DNA of 60,438 nucleotides from Acidimicrobiia bacterium (lineage in GTDB: Bacteria; Actinomycetota; Acidimicrobiia; Spongiisociales; UBA11373). Every line of letters starts with the position of its first letter. Position 1 is the stretch's first letter. The notes under the pieces are model-generated. The model was not told the DNA's origin and made no database searches. It saw only the letters and a program-made list of their open reading frames with translations. Positions 4,176 to 50,984 of the stretch are shown one piece after another. The position numbers were made by a program, and so were the translations under genes. Location of the stretch: contig DATECY010000087.1 in assembly GCA_035286665.1 (NCBI GenBank), positions 1-60,438 of the forward strand, written 5' to 3'.

Positions 4176-4459
4176 GGCTCCTCCAGATAGGACACACCCA
4201 TCTCGATCAGTTCCACGGTCGAGTCCTCCAGCATCATCCTCTGCAACCCGTCGACGATTTCATCGAGACGGCCGCGCTGTGGCGCAACCACGGCGACGCC
4301 GACGGTGGCACGCTGCCAGTCGTCCTGATGGTCGACCTCGGCCACCGAGAGGTCACGCTCTCGGAGCCGCCGCAGGACCGGCCGAAGCACAGAACGCTTC
4401 GCCTTGAGCGATCGCGCATCCGGAATGCGCAGTTCGAGCCGAAGAGCGGCGGCGTGCAT
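4172..4459 (-). CDS. DUF503 (YlxP-like) protein
   Basis: 95 aa; L.LRIPDARSLKAKRSVLRPVL is typical of DUF503. Canonical position between infB and rbfA. No SD upstream of the ATG. Confidence 0.8.
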   Translation of the reverse strand: MHAAALRLELRIPDARSLKAKRSVLRPVLRRLRERDLSVAEVDHQDDWQRATVGVAVVAPQRGRLDEIVDGLQRMMLEDSTVELIEMGVSYLEEP

Positions 4460-4465
4460 GAGGAA

Positions 4466-4471
4466 AGGGTA
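4466..4471 (-). promoter_or_regulatory. candidate -10 hexamer TACCCT (TANNNT), 6 nt upstream of the SD-less DUF503 ATG (possible leaderless internal promoter)
   Basis: Minus strand reads gaTACCCTttcctcATG. The same hexamer sits 7 nt upstream of the ffh ATG. Purely positional inference. Confidence 0.2.
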
Positions 4472-4479
4472 TCGGGAGG

Positions 4480-4521
4480 GTTAGGAGTTAGGAGTCAGGA
4501 GTTAGGAGTTAGGAGTTAGGA
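4480..4521. repeat. heptamer tandem array GTTAGGA x6 (third copy GTCAGGA)
   Basis: Direct reading of 4480-4521, inside the infB/DUF503 spacer. Confidence 0.95.
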
Positions 4522-4530
4522 GTGCTGACC

Positions 4531-4567
4531 TAATCCCTAATCCCTAATCCCTAATCCCTAACCCCTA
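4531..4567 (-). repeat. heptamer tandem array TAATCCC x4 + TAACCCC. On the transcribed (minus) strand this reads uaGGGGuuaGGGauuaGGGauuaGGGauuaGGG, a G-quadruplex-type motif starting in the infB stop codon
   Basis: Direct reading. There are five G3+ tracts with 3-4 nt loops on the minus strand, and the last copy overlaps the infB TAG (4565-4567). Confidence 0.9.
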
Positions 4568-39161: not shown

Positions 39162-40502
39162 TCACCTCTTCCTGTTCCGTCCCCGACCCGGCAACTCCAG
39201 CCCCGGTATCGGGCTTCGGCCTTCGGTGAAGGCCTTCATCAGCTTCTGAGTCTCTGCGAACTTCCGCAGCAGGCCGTTGACGTCCTGCGGCGTCGTTCCC
39301 GACCCGCCGGCGATCCGACGCTTGCGGCTCCCGTCGATGATCTTGGGATCGTGCCGCTCGGCGGGCGTCATCGATCTGATGATCGCCTCTACCCGGCCGA
39401 GGTCCTTGTCGGACACATCGACCTGTCGCAAGGCCGATGCAGCGCCCGGGAGCATACCAAGCAGTTGGCGCATCGACCCCATCCGCCGCACTTGCTGGAA
39501 CTGCTCGAGGAAGTCATCGAGGGTGAAAGACGCCGTTCTCATCTTCTCGGCGGCCGTCGCAGCCGCCTGTTCGTCCCAGGCGCTCTCGGCCTTCTCGATC
39601 AGGGTGAGGACGTCGCCCATTCCCAGAATCCTCGACGCCATGCGATCCGGATGGAACACCTCGAGGTCGTCGACGCTCTCGCCGATGCCGGCGAACTTGA
39701 TCGGCCGCCCGGTCACCTCCCTGGCGGAGATCGCCGCTCCTCCCCTGGCGTCGCCATCGAGCTTCGAGAAGACGAGGCCGGTCAGGTCCGCTCGTTCGAG
39801 GAATCCTGACGCCACGTTCACTGCGTCCTGACCCGTCATCGCGTCGACCACCAGCAAGACCTCGTCGGGATCGGCGGCCCTGCGAATCTCCGCCAGCTCG
39901 TCCATGAGCGCCTCGTCGACCTGGAGACGGCCGGCGGTGTCCACGATGACCACGTCATGTCCCGCCGCGGCCGCTTGCTTCAAAGCGGCCTTCACGAGCT
40001 TCGGCGCCTTCCCGCCGCGGTCGGTGAAGACGGGTACCCCGATCCTGCGCCCCAAGACCTCCAATTGGTCGATGGCGGCCGGGCGCTGCAGGTCGGCGGC
40101 GACCAGGAGGGGGTGCTTCCCCTGGCCGGAGAGGCGCCGGGCCAGTTTGGCGGCCGTGGTGGTCTTGCCCGACCCCTGGAGGCCGACGAGCAGGATGACG
40201 AGCGGTGGCTTCGACGCGTGGGCCAGCGGCGCCGTCTCACCTCCGAGCGTGACGATGAGCTCCTCGTGGACGATCTTGACGACCTGCTGCGCAGGCGTGA
40301 GGCTCTTGGTCACCTCCGCCCCGACCGCCCTGGTCCGCACCCGCTCGAGCAACGCCTTGGCGACCTTGACGTTGACGTCGGCCTCGAGCAGAGCGAGGCG
40401 CACCTCGCGCAGGGCGACGTCGACGTCCGCTTCGGACAAACGGCCCTTCCCGCGCAACGCGGTGAACACGGAACCGAGCCGGTCGGTGAGGCCTTCGAAC
40501 AT
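39162..40502 (-). CDS. ffh: signal recognition particle protein Ffh
   Basis: [27 protein letters not shown] canonical start, [21 protein letters not shown], Met-rich M domain. No SD upstream. Confidence 0.96.
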
Positions 40503-40505
40503 ATC

Positions 40506-40526
40506 GGGGAGGGTAGGGGTGCGGGG
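40506..40526 (+). other. G-quadruplex-type motif GGGGaGGGtaGGGGtgcGGGG on the plus (ffh template) strand, 4 nt upstream of the ffh ATG
   Basis: Four G3-4 tracts with 1-3 nt loops, read directly. Confidence 0.6.
40510..40515 (-). promoter_or_regulatory. candidate -10 hexamer TACCCT, 7 nt upstream of the SD-less ffh ATG (possible leaderless transcript)
   Basis: Minus strand reads ccccTACCCTccccgatATG. Positional inference only. Confidence 0.2.
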
Positions 40527-40555
40527 CAGGCAGTGGTCGGGAGAGGGCTTTACAC

Positions 40556-40583
40556 GATGCGCGATGCGCGATGCGCGATGCGC
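40556..40583. repeat. heptamer tandem array GATGCGC x4
   Basis: Direct reading. Confidence 0.95.
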
Positions 40584-40600
40584 GCTAGAACGGTGCCAGG

Positions 40601-40621
40601 AACGAGCAACCGGCAACGGCA
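40601..40621. repeat. degenerate heptamer array AACGAGC AACCGGC AACGGCA (GCAACSG register)
   Basis: Direct reading. GCAACGG recurs as a reverse complement at 46021-46041. Confidence 0.6.
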
Positions 40622-40629
40622 CCCTCCTG

Positions 40630-40661
40630 CGAATTACGAATTACGAATTACGAATTACGAA
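40630..40661. repeat. AT-rich heptamer tandem array CGAATTA x4 plus a partial copy
   Basis: Direct reading. 2 of 7 bases per unit are G/C, in a high-GC genome. Confidence 0.95.
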
Positions 40662-40703
40662 GATGGGCGATGGGCGATGGGCGATGGGCGATGGGCGATG
40701 GGA
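40662..40703. repeat. heptamer tandem array GATGGGC x5 plus a degenerate GATGGGA
   Basis: Direct reading. It ends 35 nt before the upp ATG. Confidence 0.95.
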
Positions 40704-40738
40704 AAGTACCCTTGTGCTCACCCTCACCCCGGAGCGGC

Positions 40739-41356
40739 ATGAACCTCACGGTGCTCGAACACCCCCTCGCCAAGCACTACCTGTCGGTGTTGCGTGACAA
40801 GTCGACGGAGCCGGAGGAGTTCCGCAGCGCGGCGCGACGCCTCACCTATTCGCTGGTGATGGAGGCGACCCGCGACCTGCCGCTCGAGACGATGACCATC
40901 GCCACCCCACTCGAGGAGACGACCGGGTATCAGACCTCGAAAGTGGTCGCCATCGCCGTTCTCAGGGCCGGCCTCGGGCTGCTCGATGCCGTCATCGACC
41001 TGATCCCGTCGGTCAAGGTGGGGTTTGCCGGCGTGCAGCGCAACGAGGAGACCGCCGAGCCCATCGAGTACTACTTCAAGCCGCCGGACCTCGCCGAGGC
41101 GACGGTGCTCATCCTCGAACCGATGCTCGCCACCGGCGGATCCCTCTCGTGGGCGGTGACCAAGGCGAAGGAGTCGGGCGCCCGGGCGATCACCTGCCTC
41201 TGCGTGGTCGTGGCACCAGCGGGCGTCGCTCGCATGGAGAGGGAACATCCCGACGTCCGCATCGTCGCCGCCTCGCTCGACCGCGACCTGAGCGACCACT
41301 TCTACATCCGGCCCGGTCTCGGCGACATGGGTGATCGCCTCTTCGGGACGACATGA
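40739..41356 (+). CDS. upp: uracil phosphoribosyltransferase
   Basis: MNLTVLEHPLAKHYLSVLRDKST start and LEPMLATGGS PRPP motif; GGAG upstream. The track ORF start (40670) lies inside the repeat array. Confidence 0.94.
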   Translation: MNLTVLEHPLAKHYLSVLRDKSTEPEEFRSAARRLTYSLVMEATRDLPLETMTIATPLEETTGYQTSKVVAIAVLRAGLGLLDAVIDLIPSVKVGFAGVQRNEETAEPIEYYFKPPDLAEATVLILEPMLATGGSLSWAVTKAKESGARAITCLCVVVAPAGVARMEREHPDVRIVAASLDRDLSDHFYIRPGLGDMGDRLFGTT

Positions 41357-41628
41357 CCGACCTCGACGATCGCATCGCCGAGGTCCTCGACCGACTGGAG
41401 CCGGGCGAAGTCGTGACCTATGGCGAGGTCGCAGCCATGGCCGGACGGCCGGAGGCGCCCCGGGCGGTCGGCAGGTTCCTCGCCGAGACGACCGGCCACC
41501 CCTGGTGGCGGGTGGTCAACTCCGCCGGCCGGCTCGCCCCGGGGTCAGAGGTCGAACAGGCTCGACGGCTACGCGCCGAGGGGATCGCGGTGGAGGGCAA
41601 CCGAGTCGTCGGGATGAAGCGCCGATGA
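41353..41628 (+). CDS. alkyltransferase-like (ATL) protein / MGMT DNA-binding domain protein without the acceptor cysteine
   Basis: VVTYGEVAAMAG...PRAVG...HPWWRVVNSAG. The PCHRV acceptor motif reads PWWRV. ATGA overlaps on both sides. Confidence 0.8.
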   Translation: MTDLDDRIAEVLDRLEPGEVVTYGEVAAMAGRPEAPRAVGRFLAETTGHPWWRVVNSAGRLAPGSEVEQARRLRAEGIAVEGNRVVGMKRR

Positions 41629-42929
41629 ACTTCGTCGAGTTGATCGAGCGCAAGCGTGACGGCGGGGCGCTGAGCGCGGACGAGATCGGCTGGCTGATCG
41701 CCGAGTACACCGCCGATCGCATCCCCAACTATCAGATGTCGGCGATGCTCATGGCGGTGCTCCTCGTCGGGCTCGACCCTGACGAACTGGCCGCGTGGAC
41801 CGAGGCGATGCTGCACTCGGGCGAGATCCTGGACTTCTCGGACATCGGCGCTCCCGTCATCGACAAGCACTCCACCGGCGGGGTCGGCGACAAGGTCAGC
41901 ATTCCGCTCGCCCCGATGGTCGCCGCCTGCGGGATCGCCGTCCCGATGATCTCCGGCCGAGGGCTGGGCCACACCGGCGGCACCCTCGACAAGCTGGAGA
42001 CCATCCCCGGCTTCCGCACCGATCTCACCTCGACCGAATTCCACACCCTGCTCGGACGACACGGCCTGGTGCTCGCAGGGGCATCCGCCACGATCGCACC
42101 GGCCGATCGCAAGATCTACGCCCTGCGCGACGCCACCGGCACGGTCCCCTCGATCCCGCTGATCGCATCCTCGATCATGTCGAAGAAGCTTGCCGAAGGG
42201 ATCGACGCCCTCGTCCTCGACGTGAAGGTGGGGCGGGGCGCCTTCATGAAGGATCTCGACAGCGCCCGCACGCTGGCGAAGACGATGGTGGGCATCGGCA
42301 AGGCCCACGGCACCACCACGGTTGCCTACCTGACCGACATGAACCAACCGCTCGGCCGGGAGATCGGCAACGCATCGGAGATCGCCGAGTCCGTCGCCGT
42401 GCTCCGCGGCGAGGGCCCCGACGACCTGATCGAGGTGATCTATGCCCTCGGGGCCGAGATGCTCGTACTCGGTGGTCAGGCCGACGACACCGCGATCGCC
42501 CGGACGCTCCTCGCGGAATCGATCTCCTCGGGGGCGGCGCTCGCCAAGTTCGTGGAGGTCGCCATCGCCCAGGGAGGCGACCCTGCGGTGATAGAGGACC
42601 CGGGTCGCCTCGTCGCAGCCCGGAAGGAACAGGTGCTCACCGCCGCGGCGGCGGGTTTCGTCACCAGGTGCGATGCCCTCGACCTGGGCGTCGCCGCCAC
42701 CCGCCTCGGCGCCGGGCGGGAGACCATGGAGGACACCATCGACCCGGGGGCCGGTATCACCGTGGGGGTCAAGATCGGGGACAGGGTCGACGCCGGCGAC
42801 GCCCTGGCAGTCCTTCGCTTCAACGACGACGCCCATCTCGGCGAGGCGATCGCACTCGCCGGCCGGGCATTCGAGATCGGCGACACCAGCGCCGACGCGC
42901 CACCCCTGGTCCACGAGGAGGTTCGATGA
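41625..42929 (+). CDS. deoA: thymidine (pyrimidine-nucleoside) phosphorylase
   Basis: MNFVELIERKRDGGALSADEIGWLI start, DKHSTGGVGDK, SGRGLGHTGGTLDKLE. Confidence 0.95.
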   Translation: MNFVELIERKRDGGALSADEIGWLIAEYTADRIPNYQMSAMLMAVLLVGLDPDELAAWTEAMLHSGEILDFSDIGAPVIDKHSTGGVGDKVSIPLAPMVAACGIAVPMISGRGLGHTGGTLDKLETIPGFRTDLTSTEFHTLLGRHGLVLAGASATIAPADRKIYALRDATGTVPSIPLIASSIMSKKLAEGIDALVLDVKVGRGAFMKDLDSARTLAKTMVGIGKAHGTTTVAYLTDMNQPLGREIGNASEIAESVAVLRGEGPDDLIEVIYALGAEMLVLGGQADDTAIARTLLAESISSGAALAKFVEVAIAQGGDPAVIEDPGRLVAARKEQVLTAAAAGFVTRCDALDLGVAATRLGAGRETMEDTIDPGAGITVGVKIGDRVDAGDALAVLRFNDDAHLGEAIALAGRAFEIGDTSADAPPLVHEEVR

Positions 42930-50942: not shown

Positions 50943-50984
50943 GTTAGGAGAGCTGTGAGCTGTGAGCTGTGAGCTGTGAGCTCA
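50943..50984. repeat. GTTAGGA x1 followed by the heptamer array GAGCTGT x4 + GAGCTCA. The last copy contains the stop codon of the lipoprotein gene
   Basis: Direct reading, between the smc start (50902) and the lipoprotein stop (50982-50984). Confidence 0.95.

What the first reader, a model, noticed from the sequence alone, without database searches (positions are those of the whole stretch)
40503..40738. Divergent ffh/upp control region is built almost entirely from a G4 motif plus four different heptamer arrays
The 236-nt spacer between the ffh start (40502, minus) and the upp start (40739, plus) contains a series of repeats. In order they are GGGGaGGGtaGGGGtgcGGGG (40506-40526), GATGCGC x4, AACNNGC x3, the strikingly AT-rich CGAATTA x4 and GATGGGC x5.5. 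Little non-repetitive sequence is left for two promoters. Gain or loss of one unit changes spacing by 7 bp, which is about two-thirds of a helical turn. Slippage would therefore re-phase anything bound on either side, the principle used by repeat-based phase variation. ffh is essential and lacks an SD, so its promoter probably lies within or next to the G-rich block.
Basis: partly seen in the sequence, partly recalled or inferred. Interest (0 to 1): 0.6.

Follow-up and report, generated by a model that had tools for sequence, protein, structure and literature searches.

The report
Hypervariable 7-base repeats between two promoters
The gap between the ffh and upp genes of this uncultured Acidimicrobiia bacterium is padded with fast-changing 7-base tandem repeats that belong to a genome-wide repeat class, while the two real promoters sit in short conserved edges, so this is a variable filler rather than a purpose-built switch.

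Summary
Three perfect heptamer arrays (GATGCGC x4.3, CGAATTA x4.6, GATGGGC x5.9) and a G-run block lie at the stated coordinates. The "AACNNGC x3" array is too degenerate to count.

Copy number is polymorphic. Thirteen assemblies with 98-100% identical flanking genes carry at least 8 spacer alleles (136-263 nt). They differ by whole 7-nt units, and in two allele types the middle is replaced.

The "control region built from repeats" reading is only partly right:
- Both core promoters lie in the conserved, non-repetitive edges. ffh is leaderless, with TACCCT ending at -8. upp has TACCCT ending at -27 plus a GGAG ribosome-binding site.
- Orthologous spacers can be as short as 48 nt.
- The arrays are one of about 100 loci of a genome-wide period-7 class: 132 arrays, 120 fully intergenic, least dense in divergent spacers.
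- The G4 motif is a common pattern here and is not conserved.

Earlier follow-ups of this scan, on other phyla, tied heptamer arrays to PF05635 four-helix-bundle gene cassettes. I tested that here. All 5 PF05635 genes in this genome have heptamer arrays on both sides (clearly inverse in three). Across 37 relatives, arrays occur almost only in PF05635-positive genomes.

Verdict: a new member of a known repeat class. Any regulatory effect is unproven.

The parts
39162..40502 (-). ffh (SRP54-type GTPase), 446 aa, ATG start
   Evidence: Pfam SRP54_N, SRP54 and SRP_SPB, E down to 2e-72. The same gene is called in independent contigs.
40510..40515 (-). Inferred ffh -10 box TACCCT, last T at -8 from the ATG. 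This makes ffh a leaderless mRNA, which explains the absent SD.
   Evidence: A TANNNT hexamer 6-9 nt from the ffh start is present in about 24 of 25 other orthologous spacers. Genome-wide, TANNNT peaks at -7 to -10 from start codons (114, 100, 71 and 44 genes, against about 5 background). The box is identical in all population alleles. The TSS was not mapped.
40506..40526 (+). G-run block GGGGAGGGTAGGGGTGCGGGG (canonical G4 pattern). Its first half is the complement of the ffh -10 box and discriminator.
   Evidence: Read directly. The pattern is common in this genome. It is lost in the L092-type and L097-type alleles and in G001 and G002.
40555..40584 (.). Heptamer array GATGCGC x4.3
   Evidence: TRF 100% match. 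It has 4 or 6 units in other samples, with a CGCAATG marker unit at position 2 or 4. The same unit forms 9 arrays genome-wide.
40601..40621 (.). Claimed 'AACNNGC x3'. Degenerate and not a detectable array; possibly a decayed one.
   Evidence: Not reported by TRF at score 30. Invariant among G000-type alleles.
40630..40661 (.). Heptamer array CGAATTA x4.6 (AT-rich)
   Evidence: TRF 100% match. It has 3, 4 or 5 units in other samples, and one allele carries CGAATTG variant units.
40662..40702 (.). Heptamer array GATGGGC x5.9 (a G3N4 pattern). It abuts the upp -10 box and covers the nominal -35 position.
   Evidence: TRF 100% match. It has 3, 5 or more than 6 units in other samples, and one allele has a 1-nt deletion.
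40707..40712 (+). Inferred upp -10 box TACCCT, last T at -27. Predicted leader of about 20 nt.
   Evidence: A TACCCT or TAGCCT box is conserved in the orthologous spacers. Its position falls in the second genome-wide TANNNT peak at -24 to -32. The box is identical in all alleles, including those with a replaced middle.
40731..40734 (+). upp Shine-Dalgarno GGAG
   Evidence: Read directly. Conserved as GGAG or GGAGG in relatives that have a leader.
40739..41356 (+). upp (uracil phosphoribosyltransferase), 205 aa. First gene of a pyrimidine-salvage operon.
   Evidence: Pfam UPRTase, E 9e-64. Downstream genes are DNA_binding_1 and a pyrimidine-nucleoside phosphorylase.

Best explanation
The spacer consists of two short, conserved, outward-facing promoters of the actinobacterial -10-only type at its two edges. 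ffh is leaderless. upp has a leader of about 20 nt with an SD. Between them lies a core of about 190 nt that is under little or no sequence constraint.

In this lineage that core is filled by heptanucleotide microsatellites. These belong to a genome-wide class: 132 perfect arrays at 102 loci, about 5% of intergenic DNA. The arrays grow, shrink and get replaced by whole-unit slippage far faster than point substitutions accumulate. They are found almost only in genomes that also carry PF05635 (Avd-like four-helix-bundle) genes flanked by heptamer arrays.

The arrays are therefore passengers of a lineage-wide repeat-generating process, not a switch designed for ffh or upp. Copy-number change moves upstream DNA in 7-bp steps but leaves both -10 boxes untouched. 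Because the proximal array is periodic, it also leaves the sequence at the upp -35 position unchanged. Any effect on expression is therefore expected to be small.

Shown: the arrays, their genome-wide distribution, natural copy-number polymorphism, conservation of the edges, and the PF05635 association.
Inferred: the promoter positions and TSS, near-neutrality, and slippage as the mechanism.
For: - Period 7 is the only over-represented non-triplet period: 132 arrays, against 0-14 for periods 5, 6, 8 and 9, and 0 in a Markov simulation.
- 120 of 132 arrays are fully intergenic although only 10% of the genome is intergenic. Density is lowest in divergent spacers.
- Adjacent arrays often differ by one base. 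Units form one network of 1-nt steps.
- Orthologous ffh/upp spacers carry arrays in 7 of 26 genomes, each with different units. The others are 48-104 nt with both -10 boxes only.
- There are at least 8 alleles in 13 assemblies whose flanks are 99.5-100% identical (one is 98%). Differences come in 7-nt units, and the edges are identical.
- A second locus (infB/DUF503) is polymorphic in the same way.
- TANNNT positional peaks support the leaderless and short-leader readings.
- All 5 PF05635 genes in G000 have heptamer arrays on both sides.
- 11 of 15 PF05635-positive genomes have 19-119 arrays/Mb. In 22 negative genomes there are 2 arrays in about 1.2 Mb, and a same-genus contrast (G006 against G018) agrees.
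- Published heptamer SSR classes behave alike (PMC4692102, PMC4679880).
Against: - Promoter positions and the lack of effect are therefore inferred.
- The units are non-random: 56 where about 124 would be expected. A GATGCGC-type array next to an AATT-core array recurs at several loci. Pure local slippage does not predict either.
- The ffh/upp spacer acquired arrays independently in several genera, which could mean the site is favoured for a reason.
- An AT-rich array 50-80 nt upstream of upp could act like an UP element.
- The assemblies are per-sample consensus sequences, so within-population switching rates are unknown.
Confidence: 0.68

Rival explanations
1. Tunable or contingency promoter. 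The arrays are selected because unit slippage re-spaces upstream elements, such as an UP-like AT-rich array or the partner promoter. That would give heritable, reversible, graded expression of upp and/or ffh, as the 7-bp repeats upstream of Haemophilus influenzae hmw1A/hmw2A do.
For: - Copy number does vary in nature in 7-nt steps.
- The GATGGGC array ends 4 nt from the upp -10 box, and the AT-rich array lies just beyond it.
- Heptamer SSRs are known to tune expression in H. influenzae (PMC12721329, PMC8262952).
Against: - The arrays are genome-wide. They are densest where there are no promoters (convergent spacers) and sparsest in divergent spacers.
- ffh is essential and upp is a housekeeping salvage gene.
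- The periodic array keeps the sequence at the -35 position constant when it changes length.
- The region between the -10 boxes is completely replaced in alleles with identical proteins.
- Relatives function with 48-104 nt and no arrays.
- Allele lengths (136, 215, 229, 236, 263) share no helical phase.
Confidence: 0.12
2. Relic or gene-less derivative of a PF05635 cassette. The arrays were brought into the spacer as arms of a mobile cassette with a small four-helix-bundle gene. The gene was later lost, and only afterwards did the arrays evolve by slippage. This concerns origin and is compatible with the best explanation on present function.
For: - All 5 PF05635 genes of G000 sit between heptamer arrays, clearly inverse in three.
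- 8 of 11 PF05635 loci in relatives have flanking arrays, three with clearly inverted arms.
- Arrays are almost confined to PF05635-positive genomes.
- In G006, G014 and G024 the same ffh/upp spacer holds inverted array pairs 17-55 nt apart.
- Earlier follow-ups of this scan reached the same idea in other phyla.
Against: - At this locus the three arrays have no inverted partner within 300 nt.
- No PF05635 remnant or shared non-repeat sequence exists here.
- Only 25 of 132 arrays in G000 have an inverted partner, against 5-10 in controls.
- There is no dose-response with gene copy number.
- No transposase, reverse transcriptase or target-site duplication was seen.
Confidence: 0.3
3. Structural DNA element. 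The G-run block and the GATGGGC array would form G-quadruplexes (or i-motifs on the other strand) that insulate or modulate the two divergent promoters.
For: Both match the G3+N1-7 x4 pattern. G-rich heptamer repeats of Xanthomonas and Nostoc fold into G4 in vitro (PMC4692102). Intergenic G4 patterns are 1.6-fold above shuffles.
Against: - The G-run block is lost in two allele types and in G001 and G002.
- The 3.9-copy GATGGGC alleles hold only the minimum of four G-runs.
- Most arrays genome-wide are not G-rich; their units are typically 3-4 G+C out of 7.
- Predicted single-strand folding of the spacer is no better than shuffles, z = +1.0.
Confidence: 0.05
4. Assembly artefact. The arrays or their length differences would be produced by short-read assemblers.
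For: 17 of 132 arrays lie at contig edges, so arrays do disturb assembly.
Against: - The arrays are 30-46 nt, shorter than the k=141 words implied by the contig names.
- The same alleles recur in independent samples and pipelines (ENA megahit-style and SPAdes-style contig names, and JGI).
- The window allele is reproduced exactly in another assembly, L093.
Confidence: 0.02

Closest known systems
Heptanucleotide long simple-sequence repeats of prokaryotes (Mrazek, Guo and Shah 2007, as summarised in PMC4679880 and PMC4692102), including the cyanobacterial STRR heptamers
   Same: Perfect head-to-tail 7-nt units. Period 7 is over-represented against neighbouring periods. Many different units occur in one genome, and the repeats are almost exclusively intergenic. 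Polymerase slippage is the proposed cause.
   Different: The host is an uncultured Acidimicrobiia (Actinomycetota) lineage with a small 2.1-Mb genome. Here natural unit-number alleles are documented directly at a housekeeping promoter pair, and the class tracks the presence of PF05635 genes.
GGGAATC / GGGGA(C/T)T heptamer repeats of Xanthomonas and Nostoc (Rehm et al. 2015, PMC4692102)
   Same: About 90% intergenic, few in divergent spacers (7-9%), with length and sequence variation between close relatives. G-rich units give a G4 pattern, as GATGGGC does.
   Different: Those genomes are dominated by one G-rich unit type. Here there are 56 units, mostly not G-rich, and the unit GGGCGAT does not fit GGGNATC.
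7-bp SSR upstream of Haemophilus influenzae hmw1A/hmw2A (PMC12721329, PMC8262952)
   Same: A heptamer tandem array upstream of a gene whose copy number varies in natural populations.
   Different: There the repeats lie in the transcribed 5' region of an adhesin (contingency) gene and are shown to grade expression. Here the arrays lie upstream of the -10 boxes of housekeeping genes, and no effect on expression is known.
TAACTGA direct repeats of marine Beggiatoaceae (MacGregor 2015, PMC4679880)
   Same: Genome-wide intergenic heptamer direct repeats with a patchy distribution across lineages, suggesting horizontal spread. The function is unknown.
   Different: A single unit, mostly placed directly upstream of start codons. 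Here there are many units with no positional preference for start codons.
PF05635 (23S rRNA intervening-sequence protein, Avd-like) cassettes with heptamer-array arms, described by earlier follow-ups of this scan in other phyla
   Same: In this genome all 5 PF05635 genes have heptamer arrays on both sides, and arrays are nearly confined to PF05635-positive relatives.
   Different: The ffh/upp spacer has no such gene and no inverted arms, and most arrays in this genome are solo.

Membership tests
Heptanucleotide long SSR class (Mrazek 2007; STRR-like) | Perfect or near-perfect head-to-tail repeats of a 7-nt unit, 3 or more copies | tested here: met
   TRF finds three arrays at 100% match with 4.3-5.9 copies.
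Heptanucleotide long SSR class (Mrazek 2007; STRR-like) | Genome-wide excess of period 7 over neighbouring periods and over chance | tested here: met
   132 arrays, against 5, 14, 0 and 3 for periods 5, 6, 8 and 9. 0 in a Markov-3 simulation.
Heptanucleotide long SSR class (Mrazek 2007; STRR-like) | Confinement to non-coding DNA | tested here: met
   120 fully intergenic, 11 partly, 1 coding. Intergenic DNA is 10% of the genome.
Heptanucleotide long SSR class (Mrazek 2007; STRR-like) | Unit-number variation between close relatives | tested here: met
   At least 8 alleles at ffh/upp and a second polymorphic locus.
SSR-driven phase-variable / contingency locus | Repeat placed where unit number changes promoter geometry (between -35 and -10) or the transcript or reading frame | tested here: not met
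   The arrays lie upstream of both inferred -10 boxes. The proximal array is periodic across the -35 position, so its sequence there does not change. The TSS is inferred, not mapped.
SSR-driven phase-variable / contingency locus | Copy number polymorphic in populations | tested here: met
   These are between-sample consensus alleles.
SSR-driven phase-variable / contingency locus | Controlled gene is a contingency gene (surface, restriction-modification, host interaction) | tested here: not met
   The genes are ffh (SRP GTPase) and upp (uracil salvage).
SSR-driven phase-variable / contingency locus | Expression changes with repeat number | not testable with these tools
   Needs reporter fusions, or RNA data from samples carrying different alleles.
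G4-forming heptamer repeats (Rehm 2015) | Unit of type GGGNATC or GGGGA(C/T)T | tested here: not met
   The unit is GGGCGAT.
G4-forming heptamer repeats (Rehm 2015) | Four or more G3 runs that fold into a quadruplex | tested here: inconclusive
   The pattern is present in the GATGGGC array and in 40506-40526. Folding is not testable here. The block is not conserved.
PF05635 cassette with heptamer-array arms | PF05635 gene between the arrays | tested here: not met
   No such ORF lies in the spacer. The five genes of G000 lie on other contigs.
PF05635 cassette with heptamer-array arms | Arrays paired as inverted arms | tested here: not met
   None of the three arrays has an inverted partner within 300 nt. 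The feature is met at the PF05635 genes themselves, most clearly at three of the five.
PF05635 cassette with heptamer-array arms | Genome-level co-occurrence of arrays and PF05635 | tested here: met
   11 of 15 positive genomes have 19-119 arrays/Mb. 22 negative genomes have 2 arrays in about 1.2 Mb. The relatives are not independent.
Leaderless actinobacterial promoter (-10-only, TANNNT) | [quoted passage not shown] | tested here: met
   ffh has TACCCT ending at -8 and no GGAG. It is conserved in about 24 of 25 other orthologous spacers.
Leaderless actinobacterial promoter (-10-only, TANNNT) | Transcript 5' end at the start codon | not testable with these tools

The most novel reading that the evidence does not exclude
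Period-7 arrays in bacteria are not plain slippage products. They would be made, spread or maintained by a system built around the small PF05635 (Avd-like four-helix-bundle) gene, whose own cassettes are bracketed by inverted heptamer arrays. On this reading, the arrays in the ffh/upp spacer are solo offspring of that system. The system repeatedly seeds hypervariable DNA upstream of housekeeping promoters, giving this streamlined lineage a supply of heritable expression variants.
Probability: 0.3. Interest if true: 0.75.

Novelty: new member of a known kind. Interest (0 to 1): 0.42.

Why it matters
Heptamer repeats have been known in bacteria since 1990 and known to be over-represented since 2007, but their cause and function remain unexplained. 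This locus adds three things:

- **A natural allele series.** Several unit-number variants and two replaced cores sit between identical genes. That makes a simple reporter test of whether such arrays affect neighbouring promoters straightforward to set up.
- **An anatomy.** The two -10-only promoters sit at the edges, with a minimum spacing of 48 nt. This explains why an essential gene tolerates a hypervariable upstream region.
- **Support for the PF05635 link in a new phylum.** Arrays are almost confined to genomes carrying PF05635 cassettes, which turns "why seven?" into a question that can be tested genetically.

For annotation, it also warns against reading such arrays as dedicated switches.

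Tried and rejected
- **Loss of mismatch repair as the cause.** NucS was not found in the three genomes of this genus, and MutS was found in only one of the 41 genomes searched in the order. But the most array-rich relatives (G004, G015) have NucS, so this is rejected.
- **DGR or reverse-transcriptase involvement.** No RVT_1 in G000.
- **Known RNA element in the spacer.** Only a sub-threshold ALIL hit (18 bits against a cut-off of 50), and it lies inside the ffh coding sequence.
- **E. coli-type sigma-70 promoters or intrinsic terminators.** None found. This is expected for a -10-only actinobacterial promoter.
- **Stable single-strand structure of the spacer.** z = +1.0, no better than shuffles.
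- **Dispersed element with a conserved non-repeat body.** The non-repeat parts of the spacer have only chance-level matches elsewhere in the genome.
- **Orientation bias of units relative to transcription, and preference for gene starts or ends.** None convincing.
- **Inverted pairing as a general rule in this genome.** Only 25 of 132 arrays, against 5-10 in controls.
- **Exact-protein look-up for the gene beside the array at 50950.** Not on record.
- **Literature search for a PF05635-heptamer link.** Nothing in the library searched.

Full report
**Observation**

The window is contig C87 of a 2.13-Mb, 68% G+C draft genome in 202 contigs, 92% complete. Its nearest relatives are Acidimicrobiia MAGs. 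ffh (39162-40502, minus strand) and upp (40739-41356, plus strand) are confirmed by Pfam, which leaves a 236-nt divergent spacer.

Tandem Repeats Finder reports three perfect period-7 arrays:

| Coordinates | Unit | Copies |
|---|---|---|
| 40555-40584 | GATGCGC | 4.3 |
| 40630-40661 | CGAATTA | 4.6 |
| 40662-40702 | GATGGGC | 5.9 |

The G-run block GGGGAGGGTAGGGGTGCGGGG is at 40506-40526. The claimed "AACNNGC x3" (40601-40621) is too degenerate to be detected and I do not count it as an array.

**The arrays are part of a genome-wide class**

- Exact arrays of 3 or more copies number 132 for period 7, against 5, 14, 0 and 3 for periods 5, 6, 8 and 9. A 3rd-order Markov simulation of the genome gives none.
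- They occupy 102 loci, 22 of which hold 2-4 different adjacent arrays. They use 56 canonical units.
- With looser TRF criteria, period-7 rows cover about 11.5 kb, roughly 5% of intergenic DNA.
- I wrote a codon-bias gene caller that reproduces the ffh, upp and neighbouring gene calls. Against that map, 120 arrays are fully intergenic, 11 partly and 1 coding, although only 10% of the genome is intergenic.
- Density per kb of spacer is 0.78 in tandem, 0.81 in convergent and only 0.30 in divergent spacers. The arrays are therefore not a promoter-specific device.
- I found no convincing orientation bias or preference for gene starts.
- Adjacent arrays often differ by one base.
- The units are non-random. 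There are 56 where about 124 would be expected. Of these, 46 units (118 arrays) form a single network of one-base steps, against a random mean of 13 units.

**Where the promoters are**

The divergent ffh-upp arrangement is conserved across the family and beyond. I extracted 26 orthologous spacers.

- On the ffh side, nearly all have ANNNTA (TANNNT on the ffh strand) 6-9 nt from the start codon. In this genome it is TACCCT at 40510-40515, with its last T at -8.
- Genome-wide, TANNNT peaks sharply with its last T at -7 to -10 from start codons: 114, 100, 71 and 44 genes, against a background of about 5. Almost none of these genes has an SD.
- ffh is therefore most likely leaderless, which explains the missing SD.
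- On the upp side, a TACCCT or TAGCCT box is always present. Here it is at 40707-40712, with its last T at -27. That falls in a second genome-wide peak at -24 to -32. GGAG follows at 40731-40734.
- The shortest orthologous spacer (G036) is 48 nt: two back-to-back -10 boxes 22 nt apart. Typical spacers are 70-104 nt without arrays.
- About 190 nt of the spacer in this genome is therefore dispensable for the basic divergent promoter pair.
- The G-run block overlaps the ffh -10 box and discriminator. Its other half is absent from the same-genus genomes.
- G4 patterns are common in this genome, with 106 in 210 kb of intergenic DNA.

**Natural polymorphism**

I looked up contigs that encode exactly the same Upp or Ffh protein and found independent assemblies from at least 12 other samples. 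Their flanking genes are 99.5-100% identical to the window, except for one at about 98%.

- The spacer has at least 8 alleles, of 136, 215, 229, 236 and 263 nt, plus a different 236-nt type.
- Among the G000-type alleles, GATGCGC has 4 or 6 units, with a CGCAATG marker unit at position 2 or 4.
- CGAATTA has 3, 4 or 5 units.
- GGGCGAT has 3, 5 or more than 6 units, with one 1-nt deletion.
- Two further allele types replace the whole middle with other heptamer arrays: CTGCAAG x4.1 with a degenerate GCNTGCA array, or TGAGCCA x5.3.
- They keep the edges: ATC(G/C)GGGAGGGTAG on the ffh side, and the upp side from GTACCCTT to the start codon (one extra base in L097).
- The replaced-core allele shares CTTGCGGAAGGC with the same-genus genome G002, so it may be the older form.
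- The arrays are shorter than the assemblers' k-mers, and the same alleles recur across samples and pipelines. This is therefore not an assembly artefact.
- A second locus, the infB/DUF503 spacer at 4391-4564, varies in the same way: TTAGGGA 4.7 against 3.7 copies, and ACTCCTA 3.9+2.3 against 6.0. A short x2.9 array at rpsB does not vary.

**Consequences for the interpretation**

- The arrays lie between the two -10 boxes, upstream of both.
- The GATGGGC array ends 4 nt before the upp -10 box and spans the nominal -35 position. Because it is periodic, alleles with 3.9 or 5.9 copies have the same sequence there.
- The replaced-core allele has a quite different sequence at that position. The -35 region is therefore evidently not needed, as is usual for -10-only actinobacterial promoters (established knowledge, not tested here).
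- Allele lengths share no helical phase.
- Together with the genome-wide distribution and the housekeeping nature of both genes, this argues against a dedicated phase-variation switch. A modest tuning effect cannot be excluded without expression data.

**Distribution among relatives and the PF05635 link**

Orthologous spacers carry heptamer arrays in 7 of 26 genomes, always with different units. In G006, G014 and G024 they occur as inverted pairs.

Notes from earlier follow-ups of this scan, on other phyla, proposed that heptamer arrays are the arms of cassettes carrying a PF05635 gene, the "23S rRNA intervening-sequence protein", which is Avd-like. I tested this here.

- G000 has five PF05635 genes. 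All five have heptamer arrays on both sides, within about 36-120 nt, and the two arms are clearly inverse at three of them. For example, GAGCGAT x5.0 faces TCGCTCA x2.6, and AGGGATT-type units face CCCTAAT x4.9.
- In relatives, 8 of 11 PF05635 loci show flanking arrays at a strict threshold, three with 6-7 of 7 inverted matches.
- I sampled 60-200 kb from most of 37 genomes of the order; seven PF05635-negative genomes gave only 8-20 kb each.

| Group | Genomes | Period-7 arrays |
|---|---|---|
| PF05635-positive, with arrays | 11 of 15 | 19-119 per Mb |
| PF05635-positive, single gene copy | 4 of 15 | none in the sample |
| PF05635-negative | 22 | 2 arrays at one locus in about 1.2 Mb |

- A same-genus pair agrees: G006, with five genes, has 67 arrays/Mb, while G018, with none found, has 0 in 100 kb.
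- The relatives are not independent, so the Mann-Whitney p of 0.0004 (computed on 27 of the genomes) overstates the case. The pattern does recur in several families.
- There is no dose-response with gene copy number, and G000 has no reverse transcriptase.
- At the ffh/upp locus itself there is no PF05635 remnant and no inverted partner. There is also no non-repeat sequence shared with other loci.
- Only 25 of 132 arrays in G000 have an inverted partner, against 5-10 in controls.
- The link therefore holds at genome level. Its causal direction is open.

**Comparison with what is known**

The arrays fit the heptanucleotide long-SSR class of Mrazek and colleagues (2007), as summarised in PMC4679880 and PMC4692102.

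- They closely parallel the Xanthomonas and Nostoc heptamers: about 90% intergenic, few in divergent spacers, and variable between close relatives. They differ in using many units that are mostly not G-rich.
- The best-known functional heptamer SSR, upstream of H. influenzae hmw1A/hmw2A (PMC12721329, PMC8262952), differs in its position (transcribed 5' region) and in the type of gene it controls.
- I found nothing in the searchable literature that links PF05635 to heptamer repeats.

**Verdict**

Slippage is real, the ffh promoter does lie in the G-rich block, and the absent SD is explained by a leaderless transcript.
- The region is best read as two conserved minimal promoters separated by hypervariable filler from a lineage-wide heptamer-repeat process. 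It is a new member of a known kind.
- The more novel thread is the PF05635 association. The scan had already found it on other DNA, and here it is corroborated in Acidimicrobiia.

Noticed in passing
G000 contigs C174:291-602(+), C174:5905-6216(+), C35:2135-2452(-), C116:21044-21355(-), C23:8246-8551(+) (outside the window): Five PF05635 (23S rRNA IVS protein, Avd-like) genes. Each has heptamer arrays on both sides, about 36-120 nt from the gene, clearly inverse at three of them. The genome has no reverse transcriptase.
   Followed up: yes
whole genome G000 and same-genus genomes G001, G002: Neither NucS (PF01939) nor MutS (PF00488) was found in any of the three genomes of this genus (90-92% complete). 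Most other genera of the order have NucS. The genus may lack both known mismatch-repair systems.
   Followed up: partly
window 4391-4564 (infB/DUF503 spacer): Two opposed heptamer arrays (TTAGGGA and ACTCCTA on the gene strand) are also copy-number polymorphic in another sample: 4.7 against 3.7 copies, and 3.9+2.3 against 6.0.
   Followed up: yes
whole genome G000: About 330 of 2027 genes have a TANNNT box ending 7-10 nt before the start codon and almost never an SD. So roughly one gene in six looks leaderless. Only about a third of genes have a clear SD.
   Followed up: partly
L092, L094 and L102 (contigs from other samples, same proteins): A second deep allele of the ffh/upp spacer has a completely different core and a GTG rather than ATG start for ffh. 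It shares CTTGCGGAAGGC with the same-genus genome G002, so it may be the ancestral form, or it may have been brought in by recombination.
   Followed up: partly
G000, 17 array loci at contig ends (e.g. C5:31-134, ACTCATC x14.9): Heptamer arrays often sit at contig edges, including the longest array in the genome. They probably break short-read assemblies, so the census undercounts long arrays.
   Followed up: no
G033:C5 (relative, PF05635 not found): This is the only PF05635-negative genome with arrays. It has one locus with CACTGAC x4.6 and x10.6.
   Followed up: no
G000 C127:9090-9360, C75:860-1110, C40:14150-14294: A GATGCGC-type array followed by an AATT-core array recurs at several loci. 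At C127 four arrays form nested inverted pairs upstream of another apparently leaderless gene. This hints that composite array modules are copied between loci.
   Followed up: partly
window 41353-41628 and 41625-42929: upp is followed, with overlapping stop and start codons, by a 91-aa DNA_binding_1 (methyltransferase-like DNA-binding) gene and a pyrimidine-nucleoside phosphorylase. Together they form a compact pyrimidine-salvage operon.
   Followed up: no
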